A stretch of 64,000 bases of DNA from Yuukianura sp. NJ FZ-2021 (Eukaryota): NCBI GenBank assembly GCA_046563655.1, contig CM102285.1, forward strand, positions 6,014,001 to 6,078,000. Direction: 5' to 3'. Of the stretch, positions 30,280 through 48,606 are shown piece by piece (the first letter of the stretch is position 1; every line of letters starts with the position of its first letter). The position numbers and the translations under genes are program-made. The notes beneath the pieces are model-generated. The model did not search any database. It was not told where the DNA came from and saw only the letters and a program-made list of their open reading frames with translations.

Positions 30280-31654
30280 ATGAACCTCTTAGCAGTTTTT
30301 GTCATTTTTCTGGCAATTTGTTTAGAAAAAAATTTCTGTCTAGAACAAAACTCAAAATGTGCTACTTTAGTATCTGAAAATATTTTGGAGGAAATTAAAA
30401 GCTACCAAGAAGTTGTAAACAAGATCATAGAAGCAGCTACGGTGGGAGTATTTAAAGGTCAAACCTACTCCGACCTTGAGTATTTTGTGGATAAGTTTGG
30501 TTCCAGGTTGACTGGAAGTGAGGCATTGGAGAGGTCAATTGATTTTATGCTTGAAAAAATGTCAAAGATTGGACTTCAAAATGTCCATGCAGAGAATGTC
30601 ACTGCACCCAAGTGGGTCAGGTAATTTGAACATTTTGAAAACTAAAAATTGTTTAAAGTGAGTTACAAAAACATTTTAAAATTTGCTTCGCTCGTAAATA
30701 TTGTATATCGACCATTCTTTTACATTTTCAGGGGCGAGGAGTCACTGACCCTGTTAAGTCCGTATGCCAAAACAATTCCAGTTTTGGGGTTAGCATTTTC
30801 TGTACAGACTCCGCCGGAGGGAATGACAGCCGAAGTGGTTGTAGTAAACAGTTTTGCCGAACTTTGGAACTTGTCTGAAACAGTTGTGGCAGGGAAAATT
30901 GTCGTGTTCAATCAACCATTTGAAAATCCTGAGAAGGCTATAAAGTACAGACAGTATGGAGCAATTGAAGCGGCAAAGCTTGGCGCAGTCGCAGTAGTTG
31001 TTCGGTCATATGCAACCTTTTCTTTGGGAACTCCTCATACTGGACTCATGTTTTACAATCAAAGCATTTCCAAAATTCCCGCCGTTGAAGTTTCTATAGA
31101 AGATGCCCAGTTACTACGTCGTCTGTATAAAAAAGGCAAGTGTTGCAACTTTAAATTCCAAATTAATTCATTTGATGTTCCAACTTAGGTTTCTCCCAAA
31201 CAAAAATGAGCAACAACTTCTTTCTGTACAATTTTTTTTCAAAAGTCGTTACAAACTGAGAAATTTTTAAAATAAAACTTACTTTCGTATTTTCTTATTA
31301 AACGTGTTATTCTTTTCTAGGTGAGCACATACTGATGAAATTGAAAATAGCAAACACACAAATCGGAGAAATCGTCACCCGAAATTCAATTGGCGATATT
31401 CGCGGGAGTTCAAAACCAGACGAATTCGTGCTAATTTCTGGACACATGGATTCTTGGGACGTTGGACAAGGAGCGCTCGACGACGGTTATGGAGTGGTTT
31501 TGTCCGTAAAAGCACCAGAATTGCTTAAAGCTCTAAACCTCACAACGGAAAGAACTGTGCGGACTATACTATGGACAGCAGAAGAAATTGGGGAGGTTCC
31601 TTTTGGAGCTGCGCAGTATGTTGAAGCTCACCGTTCAGAACTGGAGCAGTATAC
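30280..31654 (+). pseudogene. CPQ: Carboxypeptidase Q (M28), 5' part, interrupted by the Polinton
   Basis: Signal-peptide-like N-terminus. Exons 30280-30620, 30732-31135 (GC donor) and 31321-31654. Motifs FGSRLTGS, PKWVRGEE, PHTG, SGHMDSWDVGQGALDDG, WTAEE. Confidence 0.88.
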
Positions 31655-31745
31655 AGTAGATAGCTGGGTGGGACAACGGGCTCATTTATTTTTAGAACAG
31701 CCACGGGGGTTAGTCGGCCGCAATATTGGGGAGGGAAAAAACTCA
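31655..31745 (+). repeat. Polinton left TIR (91 bp)
   Basis: AGTAGATAGCTGGGTGGGACAACGGG...GGGAAAAAACTCA, the exact reverse complement of 48511-48601. Confidence 0.97.
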
Positions 31746-31885
31746 AAAGTCCTTGTTTGAACTTGACAATTCCTAGAATTTTCCAACACCCGAGGCCTAA
31801 CAAATTCCAAGAACTTTTAAACGAAAGTTCTTGTTTGAACTTGTCAATTCCTTGAATTCTCCAACGCCCGGAGCAAAAAACAAAT
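31746..31885. repeat. Left subterminal imperfect direct repeat (2 x ~78 bp)
   Basis: AAAGT(C/T)CTTGTTTGAACTTG(A/T)CAATTCCT..GAATT.TCCAAC.CCCG occurs twice. Confidence 0.7.
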
Positions 31886-32010
31886 ACTTTTTAATTTTTT
31901 GTCTATTACAAAGTTTAAGAGTTGCTCATTTTCAGCCTCTCTCTAGACGTGTCAACAACTTAAAAACTTTTTTTAAAACAGTAATTTCCAAGTTATTTTT
32001 TATTGTCGAA

Positions 32011-32784
32011 ATGTCATATCAATTCGATTTCGAGCAGCTCCCATACCTGTGCCAATTAGAAATATTTTCAAATTTGGACAGGTGTAGCGCTTTGCAACTG
32101 GCTAAAGTATTTCCAGATTCCTTAGCCATACTCAAGCCAATGCTTGACAAGATGGCTGCCAAAGTTGCAGAGTACACCCCATTTATGATAAGTGTTGGTG
32201 AGACACATATCGTCCATCTTGAATTCAACAAGAAACAAATGTTTAGAGTTGTGCTGGCGGGTCTAAAAAGTTTTCCGATTGGACGCGTCCTCACGGTGAA
32301 AAACTTTGTGACAGCGATTGCACCACTCAGGACGACAGTCGAAGTCACACTATTCAAAAATTGTTCCATCGAAGAGCTACTACCCCTCACCGAGAAATTC
32401 GACTTTGAGCGCGGGGTTTTTCGGGATGACACTGTAATCAACATCACCCCTCATCGCTACAGCTGCAGATACGAGATTTACGGCTGCAGATTCGAGACGT
32501 ATCAAGCTCTTGGAAGTATTGAATACGCCCAACATCGCGATGAGAAAAATCAGGAACTCCGACGGCTACTTCTGGAGTCATCCATTGAATTTGACAAACA
32601 GTTGGAAGAATCTCATCGAAATTACCAATTAAAAATGCGAGAAGAAAAATTGCAACGTTTGCGCGAAGAAAAGTTCCAACGATGGATTCGTCGTCGGAAG
32701 GAATTGAAACAATCTGCTGCTTTTTTTAAGATAAACATATATCGTCGTCGCTTAGCTCTTCAGCGTTTGAGCAAACGTAACTAA
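32011..32784 (+). CDS. Polinton accessory protein with an N-terminal F-box-like motif and a basic coiled-coil C-terminus
   Basis: First ATG at 32011. FEQLPYLCQLEIFSNLDRCSALQLAKV fits the F-box pattern LPxxxxxxIFSxLxxxxxxxLxxV. AATAAA follows the stop. Confidence 0.6.
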   Translation: MSYQFDFEQLPYLCQLEIFSNLDRCSALQLAKVFPDSLAILKPMLDKMAAKVAEYTPFMISVGETHIVHLEFNKKQMFRVVLAGLKSFPIGRVLTVKNFVTAIAPLRTTVEVTLFKNCSIEELLPLTEKFDFERGVFRDDTVINITPHRYSCRYEIYGCRFETYQALGSIEYAQHRDEKNQELRRLLLESSIEFDKQLEESHRNYQLKMREEKLQRLREEKFQRWIRRRKELKQSAAFFKINIYRRRLALQRLSKRN

Positions 32785-33079
32785 ATAAAACGACAATAAA
32801 TTTTTGAAATAATTAAATTATTTATAATGTTGTAATAAATGTTAAAAGTAAAAAATTTAAAAAAGTTTTAAATATAAAGTAAATTGTATTCTTTATAATA
32901 AGTTATAAAGTTAAAAAGTTTAATAAAATAGTAAAAAGTTAAAAAATTTAAAAATATAAAGTAAATTGTATTATTTAAAAAACAAAATTTATAAGTTATA
33001 AAGATAAAAAAAGTCAAATAAAAAAAAATCAAATCAAACAAAATAATTTTAAGACTGATTAACGTTTTTTCCTGACGGT

Positions 33080-34508
33080 TTACTTGTCACCCTTACAAAT
33101 GCGGGCGTTCCTAGCATACTTGATAATAAGGTTATATGTCCGCCGCATTCCAGCAAGGTCGATGTTGTTGTGGACATCAGCATTTCCATGTTCAACAACC
33201 ATTCGGGCAGCATGACAAGCAATCCTGCCGCAGTTGTTGGCCGGTCCCAATGATGAGTAGAATATGTTGCGATTAAAGTTGGCGTAGTCCCATCGAATGG
33301 AATAAGGCATGTTGAATTTGTGGCGGAGAACTCTGTCCAGTTGAATTCTCACATTGAAGAGCCTTGCTGGTGCAAATGAGTCATAAAAGTAGCCACACCT
33401 AAAAACAACAGTATTAAGCACATGCTAACCCACAATGAAGTAACATAATAAATGAAAACTTACCAATTTTTGATGTCAACAGCTACTAGTAGGATATGTC
33501 CTGGAATTTTCACGCTGACCAGCAGGATCTCAGTGTCCGATGGCATAGCCAAAAACGGTACATCAATAATGCCCAACACGTCCATTGTCGGGCTCATAAA
33601 CGATGTCGCTCTTAGGTCGTAGTAAGGACAACCCAAAGCCGGCTGGATATCTTCCGACACGTTCCACTTCACACAACGCCATGCTTGCTCCGTCGGGATG
33701 TAGTGAATTTTTTTCCCTGCAGTTCTGACATCTTCCATGAGTTTCTACACAAAAACAGACCAAATTTATGATTAGTATTTAAAATTAAAAAAATATAAAA
33801 AAGTATAAAAAATTTTAACAAATTAAACTTACCGTCATGAACGCGATAAAAACAGTAGGGAAGGTTCCACTTGCCGGGTTTTTCCGAAGCTCGTCCACGT
33901 GAGATTTCGCCACCTTAACGACGCCGTGATCGTAGTACTTCTCTTTGCACTTGAGTGGGAATTCCCTTGCCCAGTACAAATCTGCAGCGGGGATTTCCGT
34001 TTTAATTTGTGCAGTGTCCGGAAGTGGTGTGTAGTTGACTGAATCCGTCCAGTCTGCGCGATGTTCCGGAAGGATATTCTTGAGCATGAAGTACGAATGT
34101 ACTTCCTGGAGTCCTCGCTGTGTACGAACAATTCCGTTGACCATATTGATGAGCTCGTCGCGATCAGTGGTTGTGTTTCTGAAATTTTGAAATAAAGTTA
34201 ACAAATTGTCGTGTTTAAACTGTTTTTGAAATTTAAATTAACTGTTTTTAAAATTTAAATTAACTGTTTTTAATTTGTGTAATAAAGTTTTTAATGAAAA
34301 GCAAACTTACCTGATTGCTCTAAATCTATCGACGACTGCCGAGTAATCGACGCGAATCTCCCGAGGAACTCCGAGAGGTTTACCTCTCATGTCGAGGAGC
34401 AACACTTCCAAGATTTCTTCCCAGTGGTCGTAAAAGTACTGTGGAAGAGGCTGCTCCGCAGCAATAGCGTAAATAGCGTAAAATAAAAATTTTTCAGTTT
34501 TTTTCCAT
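33080..34508 (-). CDS. Four-exon clan CE (Ulp1/C48-like) cysteine protease
   Basis: Phase-consistent GT-AG exons ~34508-34311, 34178-33833, 33744-33464 and 33398-33080 join into ...GHILLVAVDIKNWCGYFYDSF...NNCGRIAC (H..D..C order). The ATG at 34508 is out of frame by one A in an A7 run. Confidence 0.65.
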
Positions 34509-35249
34509 TTTGTCACTAATCAGTGCTTAAAGTACTGATTTGAACACACATTTGCATGGCGAATCCGCTGGTGCAATTTGTTTTCCCATAAACATAATGC
34601 TCTAAAAGTTACAGCCACTTAAAGTCGCGTTTAATTTTAACACTAATTTGAACGTTTTTTGCATGTGGCTTATGCTATTCAACATTTATAGGGTTATAAA
34701 GGTTGCTCACCGACACAGAATTTGATGGGGAATCGAGCACTGGTTTTAGTTTTCATTTAAAGCTTCTCTGAAAAAAGTTACAACAGAAAAACCGATTTTT
34801 CAGTGATTTTTCAAAATGGATGTTGGAAACATAAATAAATTATAAGAACAACTGACCTATAAAACGGCTTCTTAACATTTCATTTGACACTTTTTAACTA
34901 TTATTAACAATGATTTCATTTTTTTGTGATTCTTCAGTGATTTTTCAGTGCTTTTTCAGAGGAAATTTTTCAGAGGAATTTTTTTTTTAATAAAATTCGA
35001 TTTCACATTTTGTCGCTTGTTTATTCTGATTATTTGATTATTTATTAACTAACATTAACTATGATCCCATTTTTTAGTGATTTTTCAGTGATTTCTCAGA
35101 GGAAATTTTTAATAAAATTCGATTTCACATTTTGGAGCTTGTTTATTCTGATTATTTAATTATTTATAGCTAAATAACTAGCGTTAACTAAATAACATTA
35201 CTTTGGAAATTCACAAATGCATTTTACATAAATTCACAGCTTTCAAAAG

Positions 35250-38200
35250 ATGGCGAAAAGATCTGCATCTCCCGCTCCGGGTCCATCATCTAAGCGCGGG
35301 TGCCATACATGCGAAATCTGCAACGAGAAGTTCCCATGCGCAAATCAGCTGCTCATCCACATCCACATTCAGCATGAAGAGGACGAGACGGTGACCGAAG
35401 CAACAAAACAACTTCCACAGATGCCCACAGATGGCCCTGCCGTTCTTTCCATGTACCGTGAAATGAAATGTCCACCATGCAATTTGACATTTCCGTGTCG
35501 CGATGAAATGCAAAAGCATTTTTACGAAGTTCATCCAGATTTTTTCTCTGATCCGGCGCAAGATGGAGGTCAACTTCCAACAAACTTGGAGCCAATAACC
35601 GTCGAACCACTTTTCACATCGCTAAACACAGTGACACAATACAGGGCGGTATTTGAAAACTTTCAATGTGAAAATGGTGTTGATGAACGCGACTTTCTAA
35701 AGTGTGTCTACGATTCATCTGCATCATGTATCAAACAAGACATAAAGAAATGGAAGAACGTCAAAGTATTCTTCTCGATGGTATGTAATTTCACAAAGTC
35801 TTATATTAACGGTACAGTCGAGACAAACCGCGGCTGTTTCACGTCTTTTCGTCACCTCGTTTACACTGATGAAAGTATTCCAAAGGTGTGGAATATTATG
35901 GGTCATCAGATGTCAAACCAAATTGAAAATTTTACGAATGAGGGAAGTGGGTGGGACTTGGCCTATATTTCCGAGTTTAAATTCGTCACCGCCAAATACC
36001 AATTTACTAAAATTGGAACTTTTATTGAAACACCATTTCCGCTTTCCGAACACAACAAAACATTGTTAAACATTGACAATAGTGAAGTGACACCGTCAAA
36101 CTCTCACAATCAGTGCTTCCTTTGGGCTGTTCTCGCTCATGACAGACTTGTCGGAGCGACTCTTGGAAGAAATCGCTCCAGAGTGGACAAAAAGGTCAAA
36201 ACTTACGCCCCCCATGTATCAAAGGTAAACACTCAAGGTTTACACTGGCCAATGTCCCTACAGCAGCTGCCACGTTTTGAGCAACTCAATCCAAACATCT
36301 CGCTAACAGTTCTCGGCTATGACATGGATGCTCCAGCCCCTCCACCGCGAAAAAACGAGACTACTCGTCAAAGGTCAAAGGCTGCTCAAAAGGAAGACCT
36401 CGACTTGTTCAAATGTATGCAGGAAAATATTTCAATCCTCTACAACTCAAAAGAATCCAAACAAATTCACGTGGACTTGATGTGTCTGATGCAAGGCAAC
36501 AACGCTCACTTTCTTCTAATCCGAAATCTTGAAGCGCTAATGAAGCCTCCGAATGTTCACCACACGTTGCACATTTGTCGCAATTGTCTTTCAAATTTTA
36601 AACTTCCAAGAACTCTGAAAGACCATATTCCCTACTGTGCTGCGCTTGGGCTCCAAAAAGTCAAATACCCAGAGGGGGATAAGAGCAACCTGAAATTTGA
36701 CAAGTGGGCACGTACTCAGCCAATTCCATTCCGCTTTTACGCAGACTTTGAAGCGTTCCTCAACAAGTTCGACTCTACATGCGAACACGAAGTCTGCCGC
36801 CAACGGCACAAAGCACAAATGACGGAATCAAAAGAAAAAGAAGTCAAGGAAAACACCCGTCGTGTTAATATCCACAAGCCGTGTGGATGGTCATGGGTCT
36901 GCGTCGACTTTAACGGTAACCGTCGCTATGGAGAGTGTTATCACATGACAGACGATAATGAAGACGTAGCTGCTCGCTTTGTTGAGAGCATTCTCAGATA
37001 CTCCAAGATTCTTCAAAAAGAAGTTGACGAATATGAGAAGATTGCTCCGAGAATGCTGGATCAAAACATGACCCGTGAACAGCGTGAAGCTTCAGAACGT
37101 GAAACAAAATGCTGTTTTTGTGAAAAAGCATTTTGTTTCGGTGAAACAAGAGTGCGACACCATACACACCTTCCACCTTTCAATTACATCGGTATGGCAC
37201 ATCAATTCTGCAATCTTGAAGCCCAGATCAAAAAGGAATTTCCAGTATTCCTGCACAACTTATCCTCCTACGACGTGCACTTCCTGGTACAATCAATGGG
37301 GAAGCTCACAGAAGACAAAATCATCAAAAATGTTGAAGTCATTCCAAAAAGCAGTGAGAAATTCTTGTGCATGACCGTTACTCCAGAGTATTCCGGAGAA
37401 GCAGAAGAAGAAGAAGACGACGAAGACATTGTCGGGAATACTAGAAGACGTGAAAAGTACAAACTACGATTTACAGACAGTCTCGGCTTCACACTCAAAT
37501 CCCTAGACGGTCTGGTTAAGGTAATGCGTCAAGACCCAAATGCCACCTTTCCAGTCACCCGACAAGAATTTCAGCAGGAAGTCGACAGTGGCGCCAACAT
37601 CGATCTTCTCTTCCAGAAAGGCGCCTACCCATACTCACTTATGAAATCCTGTGAAGACTTTGAAATGACAAGTTTGCCTCCAAAAGAAGCGTTCTTCAAT
37701 GACATGACCGAGGCGCCAATTCAAGATACAGTTTACGAGCATGCCCAGAAGGTTTGGGAAAGCTTCAAAATCAAAAACATGGGAGAGTGGCATGACCTTT
37801 ACGTGCGTCTGGACGTTTCACTTGGAGGGTGATGGAGGGTGTTCGAAAACTTATGATGGACAGCTACGGTTTGGAACTGGGCCACTACTATTCTCTTCCA
37901 ATGATGGCCATTGATTGTGCTCTAAAAAAGTCTGGAGTTGTTCTGCAATTAATCAGCGACCCTACGATGCATTGTTTCTTAGAGCATTCGATCAGAGGTA
38001 AGAAATTATATAGAAATTATATTAAAAACAATTGAAATTGTTGAAAACTAATCACTTCTTTTTAATTTAGGTGGCTTCGTGTGTGTGGGATCTCGACGTT
38101 CTGCAACTGCAAACCATCCTTACATGGGTGATGAGTATAATCCGGACGAACCCATCTATTATATCATTTACATTGACGCGAATAATTTATACGTTAGTAA

Positions 38201-39692
38201 TTTATATGTTCATAATTTATTTCATTTAATGAAATTATGTCAGAATTTAATTTTATTATATTTTTAGGGAAAAGCAATGAGTTTAGCGCTTCCCGTCGGA
38301 GATTTTCGTTGGCTGACTCAGGCTCAAATGGATAAAATTTTGGGAGATATTGACAGATTCATTGCAGAAACGGACAGGGTGAAGGATACTGGATATTTAC
38401 TAGAGGTTGACCTGGAAATTGACCCAGAACTCCATGATCAGCTTAATGATTATCCTCCAGCTCCTACTGCAAGAACTGTTACACTGGATGAGCTCTCTGC
38501 ACACCAGCAGCAACTCATGGAAGACCTCAACTCTGGGCCCGGTTTGTTCAAAGTGAAAAAACTTGTCGCAGATTTGAACAACAAAAAAAGCTACATCCTT
38601 CATCATGCCATTCTCAAGGAATACTTGGCAATGGGAGTTAAAGTCTCCAAAATTCACAGAGGTATCTCCTTCACACAGCACGCTTGGATGAAGGACTTTA
38701 TTGACTACAATACGGAAATGAGAAAAAAGGCCACCAGTGACTTTGCCAAGGACTTTTGGAAGTTGCTGAACAACTCCGCATTCGGGAAGACAATCGAACA
38801 AGTCCGTAATCGTCAGAATGTTCGCATTGTCACAACGGTTGAGAAGGCGCTTTACTACAATAAGAAACCTACAGTCCAGAACGTGATTCCAATAAATGAA
38901 ACGACTTGTGTCTTTATGATGAAGAAACTTCAAGTGACACTCAACAAACCAATTTTCACTGGAGTCACAGTCCTTGACCTTGCCAAGAGCATCATGTATC
39001 GTCATCATAGAGTGGGCATGCAGGCAAAGTATGGAGACAAGTGTCGCTTGATATATACCGATACTGGTAAGTATAAACTACTTTTAGTTTTTGTCAAAAT
39101 TTTTTTCACAAAGTGTAAAAACAATTTTTTCCTTGCAGATTCATTCATTTATCACATTCAAACCGAGGATGTGTACCAGGACATGTTCGAAAACAAGGAA
39201 TTGTACGATATGAGCGAGTATCCAGCCGATCATCCACAATTCGGAAAGTTTCACGACCCTGTCAACAAAAAAGTTCTGGGAAAATTCAAGGATGAGGCTG
39301 CTGGTGCCGTTATCACGCATGTGTACTGTCCAAGACCGAAGATGTATACCATTCGAAGTCTCAAAATCCAGACCGCCAAGTGTGACCTCTCCGGAAGAAC
39401 TATTTATCAGAAGAAGTCGGACGGTTCATGGCTGTTAAAGGATGAGTATACCAAGAAGGCAAAGGGAATTACAAAAACAGCGGTTAACGGTCAGGTCAAG
39501 TATGAAGACTATGAGCGAGTCCTCAAGGAGAATGTGCAGACTATGGTTACCATGCGTGGCTTCAGAAGCGTCGAACACCGAATTTTCACAGAAGTAACCA
39601 TAAAGAAGGCTCTCAACGGATTGGACACGAAGAGATATGCTGTAGATAGTGTTAATACTTTAGCTTTTGGTCATAAAGATATCCCAAAATAA
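35250..39692 (+). CDS. Protein-primed family B DNA polymerase (pPolB) with 3 introns and one frameshift
   Basis: N-terminal C2H2 fingers, an OTU-like segment (NQCFLWAVLA...HFLLI), exonuclease motifs (YADFE, HNLSSYD, FTDS), an EndoVII/HNH-like insert (CCFC..HHTH..AHQFCN) and KGAYPY. After splicing introns 37998-38070, 38193-38267 and 39067-39138 it reads IRGG, DANNLYG, KLLNNSAFGK, YTDTDS, PKMY. Frameshift at about 37824-37832. Confidence 0.95.
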
Positions 39693-39812: not shown

Positions 39813-40722
39813 ATGCAGGTCTCCTCTCGCTGTGGTAAATTATTTTCGCGTTCTGACGTTGCAAAGCGTCACGAGAAGACATGTTTCAAATGTTTCTCCG
39901 TCTCTCCCACCACCGCCGCCGCCACATCCTGGGTGGTTCCAGCCATCGGTGGGGCAGGCCCCACCGTTGGAGGGAGTTCCACCACCGCCGCCGCCCCCGC
40001 CGCCGCCCCCACCGCCGCCGCTCCCGCCTCCGCCCTCCCCAGCCACCGCCGCCACTCTACTTCAGCATCCACGGTCGGGAGACGATATTGACTTGCAACT
40101 TGTGGCACCGTTTACAATGTGTGTGAGCGGAATGACAAACACAGGCAAAAGCACGCTTGTCAAGGAAATTTTGATTCGAAGAAACGAAGTTGTAAAAACT
40201 TCAACTGGAATTGCAAATGTAACTTATTGTTACACAGAGTGGCAGTCTGGGCTATTTGGAGAACTAAAAACAAAAATTCCTGGCATTCAGTTTGTTCATG
40301 GACTGCCAGAGAAATGGCATGATGGTACTGACAGACCGTCAATTATGGTTCTGGATGATTTAATGCATGAAGCAGGGAAGAAGGGAGAGGTTGGAGCAGC
40401 CTTCACGAGAACTTCTCATCACAGAAATGTGTCTCTGATTATTTTGGTTCAAAACTTTTTTCATAAGAATTTGAGAGAAATTACACTCAACTGTCAGTAC
40501 TTGGTTCTCATGAAGAATCCACGAGACTCTGCTTTTGTTTCATGCCTTGGACGACAAATGAATGGAGGAAAAAAGAACGCGACAATGGACTTGGCATACA
40601 AGGAGAGCATGGCAAAGCCCTACGGCTATCTTTTAATTGATCTAACTCAATCACAAAAGGACGACTATCGAATTAGAAGTAGCATTTTTCCCGAAAATTG
40701 TTATGTTTATGTCAATGAATAA
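39813..40722 (+). CDS. A32/FtsK-like genome-packaging ATPase (5' structure uncertain)
   Basis: PFTMCVSGMTNTGKST (Walker A), MVLDDLM (Walker B), FTRTSHHRNVS, QN, KNPRD, PYGYLLID. The ATG at 39813 is in a different frame from the ATPase core. Confidence 0.9.
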
Positions 40723-40790
40723 ATAAAATTCAAAACAAAATTTTGTGTATTTCGAGTTGATTTATTCAAAAAAAATTTTTTAAATGTATT

Positions 40791-40967: not shown

Positions 40968-40991
40968 GTTTACTTGTCTCTCTCTGAATCG

Positions 40992-41993
40992 CTACTGATC
41001 CAATTTCAACAGTTGCTTGTCGTAAAAACTACCCAAAATAGGAGTACCCTCAAGGTCTTCTAACTTGTAAACGTATGGATTAGTTGCTATAACTCTCACA
41101 ATTCGATAAACTTCGTCAATATAGTTTGTCGAGTAGCCCTTTTCAAACGTTTTTTTAATTCTGGCGACAAGGACGAGGTCATTTACGTTGAGTTTAGGCT
41201 TTTTATAGTCCACTGCAACTTCCGGGTACAAGTTGCGCCGTACTTCATCCTCATTCCTTTCAGTAACTTTGCACGGCGCCATTTTAATACTTCGATGATA
41301 TGCATGATTGTACAGATTTTCAAAATCTGTCAATTTATCAACAAACTTTTTGGTTCTGTTATGTGTCAAGTAGCGTTGAATTCTCATGAATAGTGTGCGG
41401 ATGAAACGTTCCACAATCACACATTTTAATGGAGAATGTGTCCAAAATAGTTTGATGTCTTCATGCTTCAGATACGTCTTCATGTGTTGATTAAGAAATT
41501 CAGAACCTTTGTCAACTTGTACTCTCTTTGGCTTTCCACCACAGCGCTCTAAAATTTTTTTAAATGCTGAAAGAACTACTGGTCCTGTCTTGTTTGGAGT
41601 TGCCTCGATCCAGCCTTGTTTTGAAAAAGCGTCAATAACCACCAACAAATACCTAGAAAACAAATTCGAGTTTTTAAAAACCCTAACCTAACCTAACCCA
41701 ACCTAACCTAAGCTAACCTAACCTTACCTTTTTTTGTTATTGGCTCCCGACATGTTTTGAATGTCCTTCAAGTCTGCACAATACTGTTCGTGCATGCCTC
41801 CAACATAAACTCTCCGACGTGGAAACCGATATCGAACTGGACGGTGGAGTTGATAACTTGGAATTTGCTTCAAAATTTTCTTGACGCGGTGTGGAGACGC
41901 CTTAGTGTTTGAATCTTTTTGAAACCCAAATGCTCCAGAAAAACTTCCAGGTAGTAAAGTGTTTAACCATCGTTGTTTCAGATCGGTGTCCAT
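40992..41993 (-). CDS. Retroviral-like (RVE, DDE) integrase, 2 exons
   Basis: Exons 41993-41728 and 41652-40992. PGSFSG N-terminal motif; D (YCADL), D (QVDKGSEF), E (IVERFIRTL); HRSIKMAP, FEKGY, GSFY. No chromodomain is visible. Confidence 0.95.
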
Positions 41994-42058
41994 GGTGGAA
42001 ATGAAATAAAAGGACGCTGCACAGTTCAATTTGTATCATTCAGTCTCTAGCAATCAAA

Positions 42059-42394
42059 ATGGCTGGAAGCAATTTCAACAAGCATTTTAATTTTCTCAAA
42101 AACTTGAATTCTCGCTCTGAAAAGAAACGATCTTTGCATTTAAATAGTGCGAGTCCAGAACAAATTCGAGCTATTTGCGAATGTGCACACAACGTGTACA
42201 ATGGACGTTTAGTGATTCCACCAAAAGCTATAAAACGACTCATTCCTCACAAAGATCACATCAGACGTCTGATAGCACGCAGAGGAAAAGCAGATCACAA
42301 GCGCCGTCTTCTTGTCCAACAGGGTGGATTTCTACCGTTGCTACTTGGCGCAGCAATTCCAGTATTAGGAGAACTTTTAGGCAAACTTTTATAA
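42059..42394 (+). CDS. Polinton virion core/membrane-active precursor (adenovirus pX/pVI-like)
   Basis: Basic 111-aa protein ending QQGG|FLPLLLGAAIPVLGELLGKLL, a putative protease site followed by an amphipathic helix. Confidence 0.7.
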   Translation: MAGSNFNKHFNFLKNLNSRSEKKRSLHLNSASPEQIRAICECAHNVYNGRLVIPPKAIKRLIPHKDHIRRLIARRGKADHKRRLLVQQGGFLPLLLGAAIPVLGELLGKLL

Positions 42395-42396
42395 AC

Positions 42397-43053
42397 ATGC
42401 CTACAAAATACAAAGTTATTAGTGATGAAGACTTTGAGCGCCTAATGACTCAAACTTCTAAACCAACTGAAATCGGAAGACTCGAAAATGAAAAAAATCA
42501 AGTGTTAAACTTTAAAGATTCGGAAGAAATTCAAAACAAATTACTTCAAGATGTGCTACGGCGATTAGCAGAAAAGAAAAAACGTGAAAAGCCAGAAATT
42601 CCTACTAAAAGTATTTCAGAGCCGCCCGTTCCATCAGTGGAAACCTCACCAGAGCCAATTCCTTTAGAGAAGTTTGACTTTGGTGGTCGTACAAGACTTG
42701 GAGTTCATCTTTTGCAGTTTTTTATTGACAATGGAACCACACTAGCCTCAGGAATTGTAAACTTTGACGGTGGATCACTACCAATTTCTACATTTGATTC
42801 AATACTTAAAAAACTGTCAAATGGAAGATGCAAAATTTCAAAGGATGAACTCGAACCAATAAAAAACTTTTTAACCTCAAAAAGATTTCCATTGTCTATC
42901 CTACCCAAAGCACACCTCCATCTCTTTACGGGAGAAGACTCTGACGTGGCTACTCCTGGAAAAAATCGAAAAAGCATGCACAAATCTCGGAAACGAGCTC
43001 GAGTGGATGACAGCTTTCTGGACGAATGGAAGACCCCACCGAATTGGAAATAA
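42397..43053 (+). CDS. Polinton hypothetical protein (218 aa)
   Basis: ATG lies 2 nt after the previous stop; MPTKYKVISDEDFERLM..., basic NLS-like C-terminus ending W..PPNWK. Confidence 0.65.
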   Translation: MPTKYKVISDEDFERLMTQTSKPTEIGRLENEKNQVLNFKDSEEIQNKLLQDVLRRLAEKKKREKPEIPTKSISEPPVPSVETSPEPIPLEKFDFGGRTRLGVHLLQFFIDNGTTLASGIVNFDGGSLPISTFDSILKKLSNGRCKISKDELEPIKNFLTSKRFPLSILPKAHLHLFTGEDSDVATPGKNRKSMHKSRKRARVDDSFLDEWKTPPNWK

Positions 43054-43075
43054 ATTTAAATACAACAACAAAAAT

Positions 43076-43600
43076 TTACAATTTTATACAACATTGATTT
43101 ATTATTTTGTGTTTAAATTTACAATTTGAATTCAATAAAGGATTTTTTAATATTACAAATTTGCGTACTTTTTTATCATTTAATTGTTTATTGGGAGAAA
43201 AGTGACAGTAAGTAGATAGAATACAACAGCCATGCATCATTTTATACAAAAAGTAGATTGCATATTGCCCACAAACATTAGAGTCAAGGGCTTGCAATGG
43301 TCTAGTATTTTCCAAAATTTTACAAGAAAACTTATTTACAAAATTTCTAAAGTCAATAGGGTAAAAATCCAGTCCAAGTCCATAAGAGCAAAAGAAGATG
43401 ATTGGTCCAGTTCTGCCTCCAATGTAGATTGCCACCCAATGTTCTCCAGGATGATCAGAAGGCTTGTTATTTACAACCAAGTAGGCTGGAAAGTGAGCAA
43501 TTGTTAGCTTTCCAAGTAGGTCGCATGGTATTACATTGAAATATGCTCTTGTTCCGCGAGTCATATTTGACAAAAACTTGTAAATTTGTGTGGTGTCCAT
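43076..43600 (-). CDS. Adenain-like (C5) maturation cysteine protease
   Basis: VNNKPSDHPGEHWVAIY, FFCSYG, LQALDSNVCGQYAIYFL; overlaps the MCP stop codon by 1 nt. Confidence 0.92.
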   Translation of the reverse strand: MDTTQIYKFLSNMTRGTRAYFNVIPCDLLGKLTIAHFPAYLVVNNKPSDHPGEHWVAIYIGGRTGPIIFFCSYGLGLDFYPIDFRNFVNKFSCKILENTRPLQALDSNVCGQYAIYFLYKMMHGCCILSTYCHFSPNKQLNDKKVRKFVILKNPLLNSNCKFKHKIINQCCIKL

Positions 43601-44901
43601 TAGTGTGAATAGTCTTTGAAAAACACGTTCTTTCCTTCGTCAATATACAGAGTAGATTGAAAGTCAGCGTGACAGACAACGTTCCAAGCCTCAGTGGTAG
43701 GTTTTGCAAACTGAACGACGATTTTTATACTTCCGTGTCTTGGGGGACAGTAGCCTTGATTCATGTTTCTGAGGTTAAAAATGAAAAACGCCTTTCCATT
43801 TGTAAACTCGGAAAGGCTAATAGCAGGTCCTTCATTGCTAGCACACAGTCCAAGACCGCTAAACATTCCATAGTATGCTTCAGAAACTCGAACATCGCCA
43901 TCACTGTTGTACTGGTAAACCTGATGATAAAGTTGTTCTCCGTTTGCTGTGACGGAAATTTGTCTCAATTCTGGAGGATTAAAGTCAAATGGATTTGTAG
44001 TCAGAGTTCCGTTCATTTTTTCACTTTGAACTAGACAAAGTATAATTCTGTCAGGAAGTAGTCCATTAATCAAGTTTTCATTCACATTTGATACAGTGCC
44101 AAGGGGCAAGCTGTACGTTTTCATCTCGATCCGTCTCATTGGGTAGCATGCCGGCTGACCATTAGCCCACATTTTCAAATGACAATTCAAAATATTCGGT
44201 AACAGAGTATGTTTTTTAACTAAAAGTCTGGCTTCAGTAATATTGATTTTGTAGCGATTTGTATTGTCTGCCTGAGAGTGGAGTGCAAATTCTTCGGTGG
44301 AGCGGTTGAAAGTAACTCTAATGTCGATTCCAGGAAGCAAGTAGCGAGTTTGGGCAAAGATGTCAGCAAACGGTCGTCCAATCATGTCCAAGCCCTTGGC
44401 TGCTAATTCTTGTCTCTTTTTGTGGGAAGTGTCAGTGTCACTCAAATTCTCTTCCTCTCTCAAGTAAAGAGCAGTAACTGCTTGTGTATCCTTGTAGTCT
44501 CCTCCATATGCAAGCACAGTCTCAATATAGGCCCGATACGGATAGAGTGACATGGTTGGAGTAATTTGTGTTTCATTTAGAAACACAGAGCACTGCTGAA
44601 ACAAGGAATGTAAAAAGTTGTTGACTGGAGCGATTCGCATGGTGGCTCTCTCGTCCATTTTATCACTATTTGCTTTTGAAATCTTGCAGCCAACATATAG
44701 CAAAGTTTCACTTAAATCAACATAGTGAACGTCATTTCCTTTGATTTGAAAAGAAATTGGACCTCCATTTTCATTTAATGCTGACAATGGATGGTACTCA
44801 AACATTCCACTACTTTGAAGACTAACGTCCATTTCTGGTTCACTAAATATATCGGTTTCACTTCTAACTACTTCTGGGTGAGGAGCGTGTTTGGAACTCA
44901 T
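43600..44901 (-). CDS. Major capsid protein (double jelly-roll, Polinton PY)
   Basis: 433 aa with SETDIF, YHPL, GPISF, YVDLSETLL, PVNNFLHSLF, YPYRAYIETVL, LLPGID, G.LPDRI and NPFDF, all typical of Polinton MCPs. Confidence 0.92.
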   Translation of the reverse strand: MSSKHAPHPEVVRSETDIFSEPEMDVSLQSSGMFEYHPLSALNENGGPISFQIKGNDVHYVDLSETLLYVGCKISKANSDKMDERATMRIAPVNNFLHSLFQQCSVFLNETQITPTMSLYPYRAYIETVLAYGGDYKDTQAVTALYLREEENLSDTDTSHKKRQELAAKGLDMIGRPFADIFAQTRYLLPGIDIRVTFNRSTEEFALHSQADNTNRYKINITEARLLVKKHTLLPNILNCHLKMWANGQPACYPMRRIEMKTYSLPLGTVSNVNENLINGLLPDRIILCLVQSEKMNGTLTTNPFDFNPPELRQISVTANGEQLYHQVYQYNSDGDVRVSEAYYGMFSGLGLCASNEGPAISLSEFTNGKAFFIFNLRNMNQGYCPPRHGSIKIVVQFAKPTTEAWNVVCHADFQSTLYIDEGKNVFFKDYSH

Positions 44902-45325
44902 TGTTCTTCAAATATATTTCTTGGCCTTTTTTCTTGAGAGCGTTTTTTGGTTTTCGTTTTTGCTTCCTCTTCCTTGAACGTCCAGATCCTGACTGAGTAG
45001 AAAGAATACCGTCTGCAACGCCTTTAAGTACTCCCTTCCAAGCGGTCGAACCGTGTTCAGAAATAGCTTCCTTGATGGATTTTTTTCCACCAATCACGTC
45101 AGAAGCTATACCAGCAACAGCAGTTTTAGCATGAGGCATTAAATATTTTGTCACATATGGCAAAACTTTTCGAAAAATTGAGCCAAAAATTCCACCAATT
45201 CCGTGACCACGCTGACGAAATTGATTGGCTTTGAAGAATACAGCTCCGTCTGATCCAACAGCTCCTCCACGCTGGGGATTATAAATTCTAAAGAAATCGT
45301 CCTCGCTCAAGTTGCATTTGTACAT
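44864..45325 (-). CDS. Polinton core protein (PZ / pVII-like)
   Basis: QRGGA, QRGHGIGGIFGSIFRKVLP, QSGSG and a basic tail RSRKRKQKRKPK. Confidence 0.8.
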   Translation of the reverse strand: MYKCNLSEDDFFRIYNPQRGGAVGSDGAVFFKANQFRQRGHGIGGIFGSIFRKVLPYVTKYLMPHAKTAVAGIASDVIGGKKSIKEAISEHGSTAWKGVLKGVADGILSTQSGSGRSRKRKQKRKPKNALKKKGQEIYLKNNEFQTRSSPRSS

Positions 45326-45390
45326 CTTGACAGTTTGACGTTTGAAAAGTTAATGATTGATAATTTTTGAGAGCGCTGTTTTTATACCCC

Positions 45391-46092
45391 TCAGTATCGC
45401 TTCCGTCGAAAGTGTAGAGTGGCAGAGAAAGTTCCAACCGTGAATAATGGTGGATCGCCAGATTCCGTCATGATGTACATCCAAATATGATCAATATCGT
45501 CAAATACAACGTCCACGTATTGAAGATGTTGAAATGATCGGGTCACGACCTTCTTGTGTTCGCCCGTATTTGAAATTTTTCTCAATAGTGGGGCAAGGTC
45601 ACCGCCGACGCGTTGGTTTTCAATTATACTACAGTAAATGAAAAGTTGTGTGTGTCCACTCGGCTCAAAAACCTCGTACTCAAAGCTCTGTTTTCCCTCA
45701 TCAAATCCGAGAATTCTAGCTGCCTCCTCATTAAGCTTGACAACTGTGTTTGCAGGTTTCTTTTTAAAACTAGCTTTCGAGTTTTTAATTTCAACTTCCA
45801 CAAGATTGTCAGATATACGTTCTGCAAGTTCCTCTGCAGTACGAATCAAGGTAACATCACCAGAGTTTATTGTGCCCAAATCAAAATAAGAATTATCAAC
45901 TTGTCTAAGCCATCCTTCTTTATGTAGCAAATATTCATGATGAACATATGTACACTCCACGAGCGCCACCTCGTATTTAACACCCTCTAATCGAATTGTC
46001 TCTGCAAAATGATTTCTAAAATTTGTAATTGTGTTCTCTGGATAGTGATTTGAAGAAGAATCACTCTGCAGAGTTACGTAAAAGTCTCCCAT
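45391..46092 (-). CDS. Minor capsid (penton) protein (Polinton PX)
   Basis: FYVTLQSDSS..YPENTITNF, YEVALVE, LFIYCSIIE..VGG..APLLR, LQYV, LHFRR. An alternative upstream ATG is at 46116. Confidence 0.9.
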   Translation of the reverse strand: MGDFYVTLQSDSSSNHYPENTITNFRNHFAETIRLEGVKYEVALVECTYVHHEYLLHKEGWLRQVDNSYFDLGTINSGDVTLIRTAEELAERISDNLVEVEIKNSKASFKKKPANTVVKLNEEAARILGFDEGKQSFEYEVFEPSGHTQLFIYCSIIENQRVGGDLAPLLRKISNTGEHKKVVTRSFQHLQYVDVVFDDIDHIWMYIMTESGDPPLFTVGTFSATLHFRRKRY

Positions 46093-46225
46093 GGCTGCTA
46101 GTTTTAGACTAAACATTTAAAATGAAGAACGAGCGTTTAAATACCTTTTTGGTGGAAGTCAAAAATTTATTTTTAGAATTCTTAAAACTAACAATTTTTA
46201 CAAAACAGAAATGTTAAAAAATTGT

Positions 46226-46642
46226 TTAAAATTTAGTGTCTTCGGCGATCCAGTATTTTCCCTCGACTTCGTCAGAGTCTTCTTCAGGAATTGTGTTCAA
46301 GCGGGGCTTGAGAGATTTACGGTTCCAGACAGCTTTGCTCATCGCTTCAGCTACAATGTCCATTTTCGGTTTCTTTGCTTGTTGACCCTTATCAGCGTAG
46401 CGCTCCTTACATTCCAACAGCAATAGTTCAAAGTTGGGTAGCTCGCTTATTGGATTTCCCGTCGAAAGAAAGAAGAGAATCAGCTTTGAAACCAGAAATG
46501 GAATTTCCTTCATTTCGATTGTAGTGTAGTAGCGATCCTTCTTGATAAAGACTTTGTATTCTCCATCTTCCACCTTCCACCAGCATTTGACACGATCTTC
46601 AAGAGTCTTGCTCACGAATCCTGCAGCGTATGCTTCAACCAT
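46226..46642 (-). CDS. Hypothetical accessory protein with one copy of a repeat domain
   Basis: ATG at 46642, with TATA-like and TCAGT motifs upstream; shares a motif with 47134-47985. Confidence 0.6.
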   Translation of the reverse strand: MVEAYAAGFVSKTLEDRVKCWWKVEDGEYKVFIKKDRYYTTIEMKEIPFLVSKLILFFLSTGNPISELPNFELLLLECKERYADKGQQAKKPKMDIVAEAMSKAVWNRKSLKPRLNTIPEEDSDEVEGKYWIAEDTKF

Positions 46643-46760
46643 TGTAGTACTTGAGGAGTAGTTTTTGAGGAGAAGTTTCAACTGAAGCTGAAATGAGACT
46701 GATGGTTTGTTGAGCAGACGAGCAGCCTTTTTATCCCAAATTTTCAGGTAGAAGTTTGAC

Positions 46761-46950
46761 CCTTTTTTCTATTTTTAGCAATTCCAACAACTTAAATTTC
46801 TTGGAAAAAGAATTAAACGAACAACTCGAAACGTTTTTCAACAGAAACGATCCTTTTTTCTATATTTAGCAATTCCAACAACTTAAATTTCTTGGAAAAA
46901 GAATTAAACGAACAACTCGAAACGTTTTTCAGTAGAAACGACCCTTTTCC
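46761..46950. repeat. Tandem duplication, about 91 bp x 2, in a Polinton intergenic region
   Basis: CCTTTTTTCTAT.TTTAGCAATTCCAACAACTTAAATTTCTTGGAAAAAGAATTAAACGAACAACTCGAAACG at 46761 and 46852. Confidence 0.85.
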
Positions 46951-47133
46951 TAATTCTAGGAAAAAGAAACGTTTTTTCGACTTTGTCTAAAAATAGAAAG
47001 GACTAAAAGTTCAACGACTCTAAAACGACATTCTCAAAGTAAAATAACCCAAACAACAAAAATTCGAAAATGTACAAGTTTGAATTTATTCAAATACAAA
47101 AACTGTTACTACTACTAAAGTAGATTATACAAT

Positions 47134-47985
47134 TTAACAAAAAATGTCAAAAGCTGAAATTTGCTTAACACCATAAAAAATAATGTTGAGAACTGTATCA
47201 TCAGAGTATGACGATTGACGATACATGTTAAGATGGACCAGTCTAAAGTGCTCGTTAAAGTCATGCTTTGGAGTACGTCTTTGGTTGTTAATTTGAATTT
47301 GTTGATGTTTGGTAACGTCCAGAACATGCTTCGAGTAGGCTGGATTTAAAATAAAAGACTCTGGCGATAAATAGCAGGAAAATCGGTGAAACACGTTTGG
47401 TTTTTTGTATGGATGAACTTTCTTGTTCGTCTTAAAACCGGCAGCCTTGCCAATTGTTTCTTTAATTCTGTTGATACGAGTGCTGAGAATTTTATCGCGT
47501 TGCTTTCTCATGTATTCACGTTTTGTCTCATGAATGAGCTCATCCAGATACTTTTCTGTATATGAGGTCGGAAAGCAGCCACACTTTAGAAGTGATTCCA
47601 CCAGAAGAGGAATGTCCATGATTTCGATGGGAAGTGGACGACCGCTACGTATGAGAAACACTCGATTCACATTGCCTGTGATGCAGTGGATAGGAAGAAG
47701 CGGCCGCTCCAGCTTTTCTTTGAGTGTTTGAAACTCTGCGGGTGACTGCTGACGAAATAACTTTAGGAATCCATTCTTGCGGTTAGTTGCCATGATTGTT
47801 TCAAAGTGTGGTAAATCCTTCATCATTTCCCCTGCGGCTATGTATGCTTTCACTAGCTTTTCCACCACGGTTGGCAGTTCCTCTGCTGTCAGAAGAATCG
47901 AATGTCCAGAAATCTTGACTGCGATGACATCTTCCATGTCAATAAACGGTTCCGAAACCTCCATGTATGACCTGAATCCACGCAT
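47134..47985 (-). CDS. Hypothetical accessory protein with two copies of the repeat domain
   Basis: 283-aa ORF starting at ATG, with TCAGT upstream and AATAAA downstream. Confidence 0.65.
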   Translation of the reverse strand: MRGFRSYMEVSEPFIDMEDVIAVKISGHSILLTAEELPTVVEKLVKAYIAAGEMMKDLPHFETIMATNRKNGFLKLFRQQSPAEFQTLKEKLERPLLPIHCITGNVNRVFLIRSGRPLPIEIMDIPLLVESLLKCGCFPTSYTEKYLDELIHETKREYMRKQRDKILSTRINRIKETIGKAAGFKTNKKVHPYKKPNVFHRFSCYLSPESFILNPAYSKHVLDVTKHQQIQINNQRRTPKHDFNEHFRLVHLNMYRQSSYSDDTVLNIIFYGVKQISAFDIFC

Positions 47986-48198
47986 GCTTATAGTTTGAGA
48001 CTGGTTTCTGAACTGATGATTGCTAGTCTCAAAACTCGCTGTTTAAGTACTACTTGGACAACGTTTGAAATGCTATTTTGAAATTTTTTCAAAAACGTTT
48101 TTTCTAAAGAAATGTTATTTTGAGAACTTTTCAAGAAAAAACGTTTTTCTTGAGAAAAGATATTTTTCCAAGAACTCAATCCTTAACTAAAAATAAAT

Positions 48199-48341
48199 AA
48201 AAAAAATAATAACATTGACCCCAGTCTTGTATCTAAGTACTTGTAACTTCTTACCCACAAGCGTTGACCCGTGTGGTATTCGAACCAGCGGCCGTAGAGA
48301 AGTAGTTACAAGCACTTAGACACTAGGCTAGAGTCAATGTT
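48199..48341 (-). ncRNA. Putative Pol III-transcribed, tRNA-like long-hairpin RNA (VA RNA-like)
   Basis: On the minus strand: A box TAGCCTAGTGT (48330-48320), B box GGTTCGAATAC (48286-48276), a 61-position stem 48341/48211 (44 WC, 11 G-U, 6 mismatches) with a 9-nt loop, and a T8 run (48206-48199) starting 4 nt after the stem. Confidence 0.7.
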
Positions 48342-48371
48342 CGAATTTTCTATACAAAAATTTCACTACTT

Positions 48372-48505
48372 GTTTTTTGTTGTCGACTTTTTTGTTATCG
48401 ACATTTTTTGTCGACATTTTTGTTTTCGATCTTTTTTTTTTTTTGTCGACATTTTTGTTGTTGACATTTTTGTTGTCGACTTTTTTGTTGACGACATTTT
48501 TTTGT
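48372..48505. repeat. Right subterminal ~15-bp tandem repeats
   Basis: About 8 units of TTTTTGTTGTCGAC(A). Confidence 0.75.
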
Positions 48506-48510
48506 CATTG

Positions 48511-48601
48511 TGAGTTTTTTCCCTCCCCAATATTGCGGCCGACTAACCCCCGTGGCTGTTCTAAAAATAAATGAGCCCGTTGTCCCACCCAGCTATCTAC
48601 T
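48511..48601 (-). repeat. Polinton right TIR (91 bp)
   Basis: Exact reverse complement of 31655-31745. Confidence 0.97.
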
Positions 48602-48606
48602 TATAC

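What the first reader, a model, noticed from the sequence alone, without database searches (positions are those of the whole stretch)
31650..48606. Full-length Polinton inserted within a coding exon of carboxypeptidase Q
Seen: the 91-bp TIRs are identical and TATAC is duplicated. Excising the element restores CPQ exactly in frame (ELEQYT-MFLEADSG). With the insertion, translation runs into the TIR and stops at 31760, losing the EAD and C-terminal YHH motifs that include predicted zinc ligands. Both host halves remain free of stops. Inference: a very recent, possibly polymorphic or heterozygous gene knockout by an endogenous virus.
Basis: partly seen in the sequence, partly recalled or inferred. 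Interest (0 to 1): 0.7.

Follow-up and report, generated by a model that had tools for sequence, protein, structure and literature searches.

The report
Polinton insertion breaks one peptidase allele
A 17-kb virus-like jumping element (Polinton) sits in the middle of a peptidase gene in what is probably a springtail genome and likely disables that copy, but the unbroken version of the gene is also present in the same sample and in an independent one, so this is an ordinary, probably young insertion carried alongside an intact allele and not a gene loss.

Summary
Observation confirmed. A 16,947-bp Polinton (31655-48601; identical 91-bp inverted ends; 5-bp TATAC duplication) splits exon 3 of an otherwise intact 478-aa carboxypeptidase Q (CPQ) gene. 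Read-through stops at 31760 and loses two predicted zinc ligands.

Public sequence data show the precise empty site in two runs of one sample, beside the filled junction, and in a second, independent sample. The insertion is therefore real and unfixed: heterozygous, or polymorphic in a pool. The gene is the assembly's only ligand-complete member of a CPQ subfamily shared with Allacma and Folsomia; two intact, more distant paralogs exist.

Qualifications: identical ends date it only weakly. The copy is full-length but not intact as assembled (polymerase and ATPase frames broken). No RNA data were found, so the knockout is inferred. Of 10 duplication-flanked family copies, only this one was seen to interrupt a host exon.

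More unusual: four short GT-AG introns split catalytic motifs of the element's polymerase and integrase; the three polymerase introns are present or absent among copies. The scan noted such introns before elsewhere in this genome. Polinton disruption of a host gene and polymorphic Polintons are already published. Verdict: real, modest interest.

The parts
30280..30620 (+). Host CPQ exon 1 (start codon, hydrophobic N-terminus; exon bounds predicted)
   Evidence: Exon model giving an open 478-aa frame; 61% identity of the N-terminal part to Allacma CPQ
30732..31135 (+). Host CPQ exon 2 (PA domain); followed by a predicted GC-AG intron
   Evidence: Pfam PA E=1.3e-5; splice sites
31321..31654 (+). 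Host CPQ exon 3, 5' part: keeps H290, D302, E336, E337
   Evidence: Pfam Peptidase_M28 1-81, E=5e-16; PDB 3IIB E=5e-21; positions
31650..31654 (.). Target-site duplication, left copy (TATAC)
31655..31745 (+). Left terminal inverted repeat, 91 bp, begins AGTAG
31758..31760 (+). Stop codon reached by CPQ read-through into the element
32011..32784 (+). Element ORF, 257 aa, weak F-box-like N-terminus; function not determined
   Evidence: Pfam F-box E=0.0015, below cut-off; kept at 257 aa in three sisters
35250..39692 (+). Protein-primed DNA polymerase B gene, in predicted exons; frame broken near 37,830 in this copy
   Evidence: tblastn of Folsomia polymerase homologs in three blocks; Pfam DNA_pol_B_2 E=0.0028, below cut-off; frame state
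37998..38070 (+). Predicted GT-AG intron A (73 nt) splitting the IRG-G motif of pPolB
38193..38267 (+). Predicted GT-AG intron B (75 nt) splitting the DANNLY-G motif of pPolB
   Evidence: absent in 6 of 32 loci examined
39067..39138 (+). Predicted GT-AG intron C (72 nt) splitting the YTDT-DS motif of pPolB
   Evidence: absent in 7 of 32 loci examined
39813..40722 (+). P-loop (packaging-type) ATPase gene; frame broken in a CCG-rich tract in this copy, P-loop part 40117-40722 open
   Evidence: Walker A and B motifs read from the translation; single 291-293-aa ORF in sisters
40992..41993 (-). Retroviral-type integrase gene, two predicted exons
   Evidence: Pfam rve E=1e-9, above cut-off
41653..41727 (-). 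Predicted GT-AG intron (75 nt) in the integrase gene, made largely of TTAGG repeats
43076..43600 (-). Adenovirus-type maturation protease
   Evidence: Profile of 35 homologs hits adenoviral proteinase structures, E=7e-10; Peptidase_C5 in 17 of 35 members, not in the window protein alone
43600..44901 (-). Major capsid protein (double jelly-roll type), 433 aa
   Evidence: ESM Atlas score 0.98 to clusters carrying PF21738 DJR-like in 14-30% of members; no sequence hit in PDB
45391..46116 (-). 241-aa ORF, candidate minor capsid protein (assignment from position and size; fold not tested)
   Evidence: ESM Atlas 0.97 to unnamed Preplasmiviricota clusters
48511..48601 (-). Right terminal inverted repeat, 91 bp
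48602..48606 (.). Target-site duplication, right copy (TATAC)
48607..48964 (+). Host CPQ exon 3, 3' part: carries D366 and H441 and the stop codon
   Evidence: Pfam M28 120-191; 64% identity to Allacma and Folsomia CPQ

Best explanation
A 16.9-kb Polinton with a clean 5-bp target duplication lies in exon 3 of a host carboxypeptidase Q gene, filled and empty versions of the site coexist in one sample, and the filled allele is likely a young, non-functional allele carried beside an intact one. Mechanism: the family's retroviral-type integrase made a staggered 5-bp cut and joined the AGTAG ends (inferred; 10 of 11 terminal pairs examined have a 5-bp duplication). A transcript from the CPQ promoter would run into the left end, be translated to 360 host plus 34 foreign residues, and lack D366, H441 and the last 118 residues, so both predicted zinc sites would be incomplete (inferred from M28 family structure). 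It would probably be cut at one of the AATAAA signals from 32784 on or be degraded (inferred). The allele probably persists because the other allele is intact. As assembled this copy could not make its own full polymerase, so it was likely copied with help from a sister, broke after insertion, or carries assembly errors.
For: Junction anatomy. Open 478-aa frame on removal. Empty-site joint 31649 to 48602 in X1 (depth 18.4), X2 (201.2) and X3 (6.36; one 636-letter contig with 418 and 218 letters on the two sides). Filled left junction contig 31626-31684 in X1 (14.7) and X2 (62.8). Filled right junction bridged in X4 by a contig 48560-49046. Flank contigs in X1 and X2 end at 31655 and restart at 48602, as a two-allele branch would give. 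Host halves are 61% and 64% identical to the Allacma ortholog with no stop; the X3 empty-site contig differs from the window by 1 letter in 636. Only one near-identical CPQ locus is found in the assembly. D366 lines up, through the Allacma ortholog, with the INADSS aspartate of glutamate carboxypeptidase II; PMC10794815 lists Asp453 among that enzyme's zinc residues (passages; that this aspartate is number 453 uses a recalled construct offset).
Against: All four to five runs are contigs, not raw reads; depth is not a share of cells. The filled share is 0.44 in X1 but 0.24 in X2, so one heterozygous animal cannot be told from a pool. The X1/X2 branch contigs are about 59 letters and fall short of the tool's 31-letters-per-side rule for bridging; only the X3 (empty) and X4 (filled, right) contigs meet it. 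X4 shows no empty joint, but has no cover at 31634-31654, so it does not discriminate. No RNA or protein evidence was obtained. No copy identical to this one was found among the four sisters compared (best 97.2%), which does not fit a simple 'just copied from a sister in this assembly' story.
Confidence: 0.82

Rival explanations
1. The filled allele is partly rescued because the whole element is spliced out as a 16,937-nt intron, using the GT at 31656-31657 and the AG at 48591-48592, which would leave five extra codons in frame.
For: The sequence shows it is arithmetically possible: 1 base of the left end, 9 of the right end and the 5-bp duplication make 15 bases, in frame whatever the insertion phase. 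The AG is present in 3 of 11 terminal pairs examined (this subfamily). Polinton inverted-repeat sequence supports rescue by trans-splicing at C. elegans eri-6/7 (10.1101/2024.01.15.575659, abstract and section 11). The element's own genes appear to use the host spliceosome.
Against: The donor has G at +4, seen in 0 of 14 host CPQ-gene donors; the acceptor is C-rich (T fraction 0.18 against 0.35-0.59 in those 14); those host introns are 58-428 nt. There are 22 AATAAA signals on the sense strand inside the element, and internal splice sites would compete. An in-frame result has roughly a one-in-three chance given any nearby AG.
Confidence: 0.05
2. The locus is a recent two-copy duplication collapsed in the assembly, one copy filled and one empty, so no animal is heterozygous and nothing is knocked out.
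For: It would give the same two junction types in one sample. Filled plus empty depth (33 in X1, 264 in X2) is somewhat above flank depth (24.5-27.5 and 211-249).
Against: One 100% match only in the assembly for either half; X3 shows only the empty form in one unbroken contig. No single-copy baseline was measured, so this is not excluded.
Confidence: 0.07
3. The insertion is old or common in the population, or the empty form in the sample comes from somatic excision or mosaicism, and the gene is dispensable because paralogs cover for it.
For: This copy has private frame breaks in two genes and no identical sister. Two paralogs on C4 have open spliced frames and all five metal or catalytic motifs.
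Against: Host halves show no decay. The gene groups with Allacma and Folsomia proteins (SH-aLRT 98, quick tree) apart from the C4 paralogs, so it is an old, retained subfamily. The empty form is at least as deep as the filled one in X1 and X2, too much for rare somatic excision.
Confidence: 0.05
4. Misassembly: the element was wrongly placed in the gene.
For: The family is multi-copy and the site lies under 2 kb from a 16.7-kb satellite array.
Against: A perfect 5-bp duplication at the junctions, and both filled junctions exist in independently assembled run contigs.
Confidence: 0.01

Closest known systems
Polintons / Mavericks of animals (vertebrate Mavericks, PMC8097293, passages read; nematode Polintons, 10.1101/2023.08.22.554363, passages read)
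   Same: Size within 13-25 kb, terminal inverted repeats, target duplication within 5-8 bp, and genes for pPolB, integrase, adenovirus-like protease, ATPase and a double jelly-roll capsid protein.
   Different: Inverted repeats are 91 bp (quoted range 100-1500). The duplication is 5 bp where vertebrate elements have 6. Core genes carry four predicted GT-AG introns, whereas intact vertebrate Mavericks are described as intronless.
Polinton insertions at C. elegans eri-6/7 (10.1101/2024.01.15.575659; abstract and discussion section 11 read)
   Same: A Polinton interrupts a host protein-coding gene and the locus varies within the species.
   Different: There no strain keeps a full element, the locus is rearranged, and function is partly saved by trans-splicing. 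Here a whole element with both ends and an exact duplication sits inside one coding exon, with the clean empty allele beside it.
Polymorphic Polinton structural variants in insects (Pannagram, 10.1101/2025.02.07.637071; passages read)
   Same: Whole Polintons segregating as presence/absence variants between haplotypes; elements lacking a working polB apparently still moved.
   Different: That study concerns insects; in the passages read it does not describe exon disruption, and the word 'intron' does not occur in its main text.
Carboxypeptidase Q (M28 di-zinc peptidase with PA domain; nearest solved structure 3IIB)
   Same: PA domain plus M28 domain; H290, D302, E336, E337 at the same numbers as in gerbil CPQ, D366 and H441 matching its D364 and H434.
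   Different: Belongs to a springtail subfamily with a two-residue insertion after the AEE motif; only 34-43% identical to its paralogs over most exons. Activity and substrate are untested.

Membership tests
Polinton/Maverick | Terminal inverted repeats starting with AG-type motif | tested here: met
   91 bp, identical, start AGTAG; slightly shorter than the 100-1500 bp quoted
Polinton/Maverick | 5-8 bp target-site duplication | tested here: met
   5 bp here; 5 bp in 10 of 11 terminal pairs (8 by script, 2 more read and confirmed)
Polinton/Maverick | Protein-primed DNA polymerase B | tested here: met
   Homologs named DNA-directed DNA polymerase and carrying PF03175; block match across 35,454-39,686; frame broken in this copy
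Polinton/Maverick | Retroviral-type integrase | tested here: met
   Pfam rve 39 bits, cut-off 32.6
Polinton/Maverick | Adenovirus-like cysteine protease | tested here: met
   Profile hit to adenain structures E=7e-10; invariant H54 and C110
Polinton/Maverick | Double jelly-roll major capsid protein | tested here: met
   Language-model features 0.98 to DJR-like clusters; a lead-level test, no structure was predicted
Polinton/Maverick | Packaging ATPase | tested here: inconclusive
   P-loop motifs read directly; Pfam gave only a weak generic P-loop hit
Polinton/Maverick | Single jelly-roll minor capsid protein | tested here: inconclusive
   241-aa ORF resembles unnamed Preplasmiviricota clusters; fold not predicted
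Polinton/Maverick | Intronless core genes (as described for intact vertebrate elements) | tested here: not met
   Four GT-AG segments interrupt conserved motifs; this is a described trait of vertebrate elements, not part of the core definition
Bona fide virus (polintovirus with particles) | Virions or extrachromosomal replication | not testable with these tools
   No data; no relative found in viral contigs
Carboxypeptidase Q (M28) | PA domain plus M28 catalytic domain | tested here: met
Carboxypeptidase Q (M28) | Five metal ligands and catalytic glutamate | tested here: met
   All present in the empty allele; D366 and H441 missing from the filled-allele product. The role of H441 is from recalled family knowledge
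Unfixed (segregating) insertion allele | Filled and empty sites both present in the species | tested here: met
Null allele | No functional transcript or protein from the filled allele | not testable with these tools
   No RNA holder listed

The most novel reading that the evidence does not exclude
This Polinton subfamily carries splice sites in its own ends, so that after landing in an exon in the sense direction the whole 17-kb element is spliced out and always leaves an in-frame five-codon scar: a giant, virus-like intron-maker that hides its damage, in a lineage whose own genes already gain and lose host-type introns.
Probability: 0.05. Interest if true: 0.8.

Novelty: new variant of a known kind. 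Interest (0 to 1): 0.36.

Why it matters
The insertion itself is an ordinary kind of event: a mobile element segregating as a likely loss-of-function allele. Its value is as a clean, testable case. It shows an animal Polinton family integrating recently enough for the intact empty allele to survive, and it gives a natural likely-null allele of an old springtail CPQ subfamily whose role is unknown. The 'variant' label comes from the element, not the knockout: host-type introns in polymerase and integrase catalytic motifs, present in some close copies and absent in others. That implies dependence on the host spliceosome and intron gain or loss within a DNA virus-like element, and means that intron-blind screens would score such elements as dead.

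Tried and rejected
No RNA holder listed for the CPQ stretch, so expression and splicing could not be examined. Run X5 covered neither junction. X4 has a cover gap at the left junction and cannot tell allele state. Inverted-repeat identity as a clock was rejected as too weak. A 6-bp duplication (TATACA) fits only with asymmetric ends and was rejected because sister copies have 5 bp; the empty site is the same either way. The idea that this family targets host exons was not supported: of 10 duplication-flanked copies, 1 interrupts a host exon, 2 lie in long frames with retrotransposon gag features, and 7 have no long frame across the site. Pfam alone names few element genes (4 of 19 element ORFs had any hit, none above cut-off). 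The PDB sequence search of the capsid protein found nothing. Viral contigs gave no relative and metagenome contigs only two short fragments. The careful tree search did not finish; the quick tree is reported (two fused-protein rows, P0004 and P0030, were left out). Literature: searches for Polinton with intron/spliceosomal (24), introns/pPolB/coral, polintovirus/intron (34), intronization (35), intron gain (52), springtail/Polinton (29), polymorphic coding-exon insertion (25) and transposon splice-out (82) found no paper, by listing and the passages read, on spliceosomal introns in animal Polinton core genes or on a whole Polinton in a coding exon. The nearest are introners inside dinoflagellate eupolintoviral elements (PMC12166617, passages) and group I introns in cryptophyte PLVs (PMC12220804, passages). 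Term searches in PMC11131425 and PMC8502044 found no relevant mention of introns. The library lacks most subscription papers and no supplements were read. I have an unverified recollection of a report of intron-bearing Polintons in stony corals that these searches did not find.
Full report
1. Observation. The element spans 31655-48601 (16,947 bp). Its two ends match for 91 of 91 bases and diverge at base 92, and TATAC flanks both sides. The host frame entering from the left reads ELEQYT, continues for 34 element-encoded codons and stops at 31758-31760; the frame leaving on the right begins MFLEADSG and runs 118 codons to a stop. A three-exon model (30280-30620, 30732-31135, 31321-31654 plus 48607-48964) gives 478 residues with no internal stop. 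The exon bounds are predicted; five other splice choices of 474-481 aa are also open.

2. The host gene. The pieces match Pfam PA and Peptidase_M28 and the solved peptidase 3IIB. The closest named relatives are CPQ proteins of Allacma fusca (65%) and Folsomia candida (58%), so the host is probably a springtail. The motif residues are H290, D302, E336, E337, D366 and H441, matching gerbil CPQ H290, D302, E336, E337, D364 and H434. The insertion falls at residue 360, so the filled allele would give 394 residues (arithmetic on the 478-aa model; one search printed 390 for the 474-aa variant) lacking D366 and H441. Through the Allacma protein, D366 aligns with the INADSS aspartate of glutamate carboxypeptidase II; PMC10794815 lists Asp387, His377, Asp453, Glu425 and His553 as that enzyme's zinc residues (passages). 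Numbering that aspartate as 453 and equating H441 with His553 are recalled knowledge.

3. Paralogs. The 98.7-Mb assembly has four other CPQ-like loci. Two on C4 have open spliced frames and all motifs, a third on C4 goes out of frame near residue 350, and one on C3 lacks several ligand motifs. In a quick tree of 40 rows the window gene groups with the Allacma and Folsomia proteins (SH-aLRT 98) apart from the three C4 genes (99) (unrooted, careful search unfinished). So it is the only ligand-complete member of an old springtail subfamily here; redundancy with the C4 genes is possible but not shown.

4. Is the insertion real and fixed? Five DNA runs from two studies hold the CPQ stretch; none is RNA. 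Laid on 30100-49600, a joint from 31649 to 48602 (the element plus one duplication) appears in 3 of 4 runs: X1 depth 18.4, X2 201.2 and X3 6.36. In X3, a different study, one 636-letter contig runs through the empty site with 418 and 218 letters on the two sides and one difference from the window. In X1 and X2 the flank contigs stop at 31655 and restart at 48602, and a second lay shows both branches: a filled-junction contig 31626-31684 at depth 14.7 and 62.8, and a loose end that is the right-hand host exon. X4 bridges the filled right junction with 42 letters inside and 445 outside. Limits: these are contigs, depth is not a share of cells, the X1/X2 branch contigs are shorter than the tool's bridging rule, the filled share differs between runs (0.44, 0.24), S1 may be the source of the assembly, and a rare filled allele in X3 could have been dropped. 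The conclusion that survives is that both alleles exist in one sample and the empty allele in a second.

5. The element. It has pPolB, an rve integrase, an adenain-type protease, a P-loop ATPase, a double jelly-roll-type capsid protein and a candidate minor capsid protein. This fits the Polinton definition in 10.1101/2023.08.22.554363 (passages). The 91-bp end matches 42 places in the assembly and a pPolB exon matches 94; both are lower bounds and include more distant families. Of 11 terminal pairs examined, 10 have a 5-bp duplication. Three sisters aligned end to end are 97.2, 95.4 and 92.9% identical, in a patchy pattern that suggests recombination. The window copy has frame breaks in pPolB near 37,830 and in the ATPase gene near 40,015-40,045 that none of 4 sisters shares; whether they are real or assembly errors was not determined.

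6. Age. Zero mismatches in 91 bases allows up to about 3% divergence, and 6 of 11 pairs showed no mismatch in their first 80 bases (two pairs were mis-registered by the script). The better evidence for youth is the surviving empty allele and the undecayed halves. Against a very fresh copy: no identical donor among the sisters compared, and the private breaks.

7. Targeting. Across 10 duplication-flanked copies, long open frames span the site in 3: this host exon (236 aa) and two frames (528 and 206 aa) with gag-type features. A host exon hit is thus the minority case, with no sign of a preference.

8. Introns in the element. Three AT-rich GT-AG segments split the pPolB motifs IRG-G, DANNLY-G and YTDT-DS, and a fourth splits the integrase. 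Among 32 loci examined (30 from this assembly, two of them the same copy and two pairs from inverted duplicates, plus 2 metagenome fragments), intron A was found in 17, absent in 2 and undetermined in 13; B in 16, 6 and 10; C in 19, 7 and 6. Lengths vary from 50 to 100 nt at fixed positions with the GT and AG kept. The motifs are contiguous in 25, 22 and 9 of 27 database homologs (some may be spliced gene models). Splicing is inferred, not observed. PMC8097293 states that intact vertebrate Mavericks have no introns (passages). I reached this reading before the look-up; the scan has noted it repeatedly elsewhere in this genome and in one other.

9. Mechanism and rivals. Best: integrase-made insertion, likely null allele, carried beside an intact allele (0.82). 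Splice-out rescue is possible in principle, since GT at 31656 and AG at 48591-48592 would leave 15 bases in frame, but the donor and acceptor are unlike 14 host sites, the intron would be about 40 times the longest of those, and 22 AATAAA signals lie in the way (0.05). A collapsed duplicate (0.07), an old or common allele (0.05) and misassembly (0.01) are the other rivals.

10. Comparison and verdict. Polintons interrupting a host gene are known from C. elegans eri-6/7, and polymorphic whole Polintons from insect pangenomes. Ten searches (listed under Tried and rejected) found no report of a whole Polinton in a coding exon or of spliceosomal introns in animal Polinton core genes, but the library is incomplete and no supplements were read. 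The knockout is a new, well-supported case of a known kind; the intron-bearing element is a variant of a known kind. Interest 0.36.

Noticed in passing
window 35753-37705 (run X3): In run X3 a 1,953-bp piece of the pPolB gene, nearly identical to the window copy, has a head-to-tail joint and depth 1,340-1,590 against 3-6 in the host flanks. It could be an amplification artefact, a small circle or a tandem array.
   Followed up: no
window 12962-29719: Satellite array of about 80 copies of a 209-bp unit, 95% matched, ending about 560 bp upstream of the CPQ start codon.
   Followed up: no
window 41653-41727: The predicted integrase intron is made largely of TTAGG repeats (recalled as the common arthropod telomere repeat) and varies in length among sisters.
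   Followed up: partly
G000:C5:2110284 and G000:C3:7456856 (loci L010/L013, L021/L020): Two sister elements sit inside long open frames with retrotransposon gag features (zinc knuckle; Retrotrans_gag E=2e-5).
   Followed up: partly
G000:C1:4515863-4532506: A 16.6-kb element with the same end subfamily and a 5-bp duplication is a mirror-image structure (duplicated terminal and ATPase-like genes) around a 1,819-aa ORF, with no match to the capsid or polymerase regions.
   Followed up: no
G000:C4:11360768-11367916, C9:1179991-1185874, C4:10501810-10507931, C8:10286512-10291876: Short 5-7 kb elements with family ends and 5-bp duplications, likely non-autonomous derivatives.
   Followed up: no
G000, many contigs: A second, distant pPolB group (36-40% identity) has uninterrupted frames of 1,200-1,340 aa, so intron-rich and intron-poor Polinton lineages coexist in this genome.
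   Followed up: partly
window 42455-42655 and 42855-46055: Mosaic divergence: about 42 substitutions in 200 bp against all three sisters in the first stretch, near identity to the C6 sister over the second.
   Followed up: no
G000:C3:10750101-10751700 and C4:1213286-1214950: One CPQ paralog lacks several metal-ligand motifs (likely inactive) and another goes out of frame near residue 350.
   Followed up: partly
window 48199-48341: An imperfect hairpin-like stretch near the right end of the element, which an earlier scan note calls a possible Pol III RNA gene.
   Followed up: no
window 49400-50050: Short exons with a DRY motif downstream of CPQ suggest a class A G-protein-coupled receptor gene (read; label recalled, not tested).
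   Followed up: no
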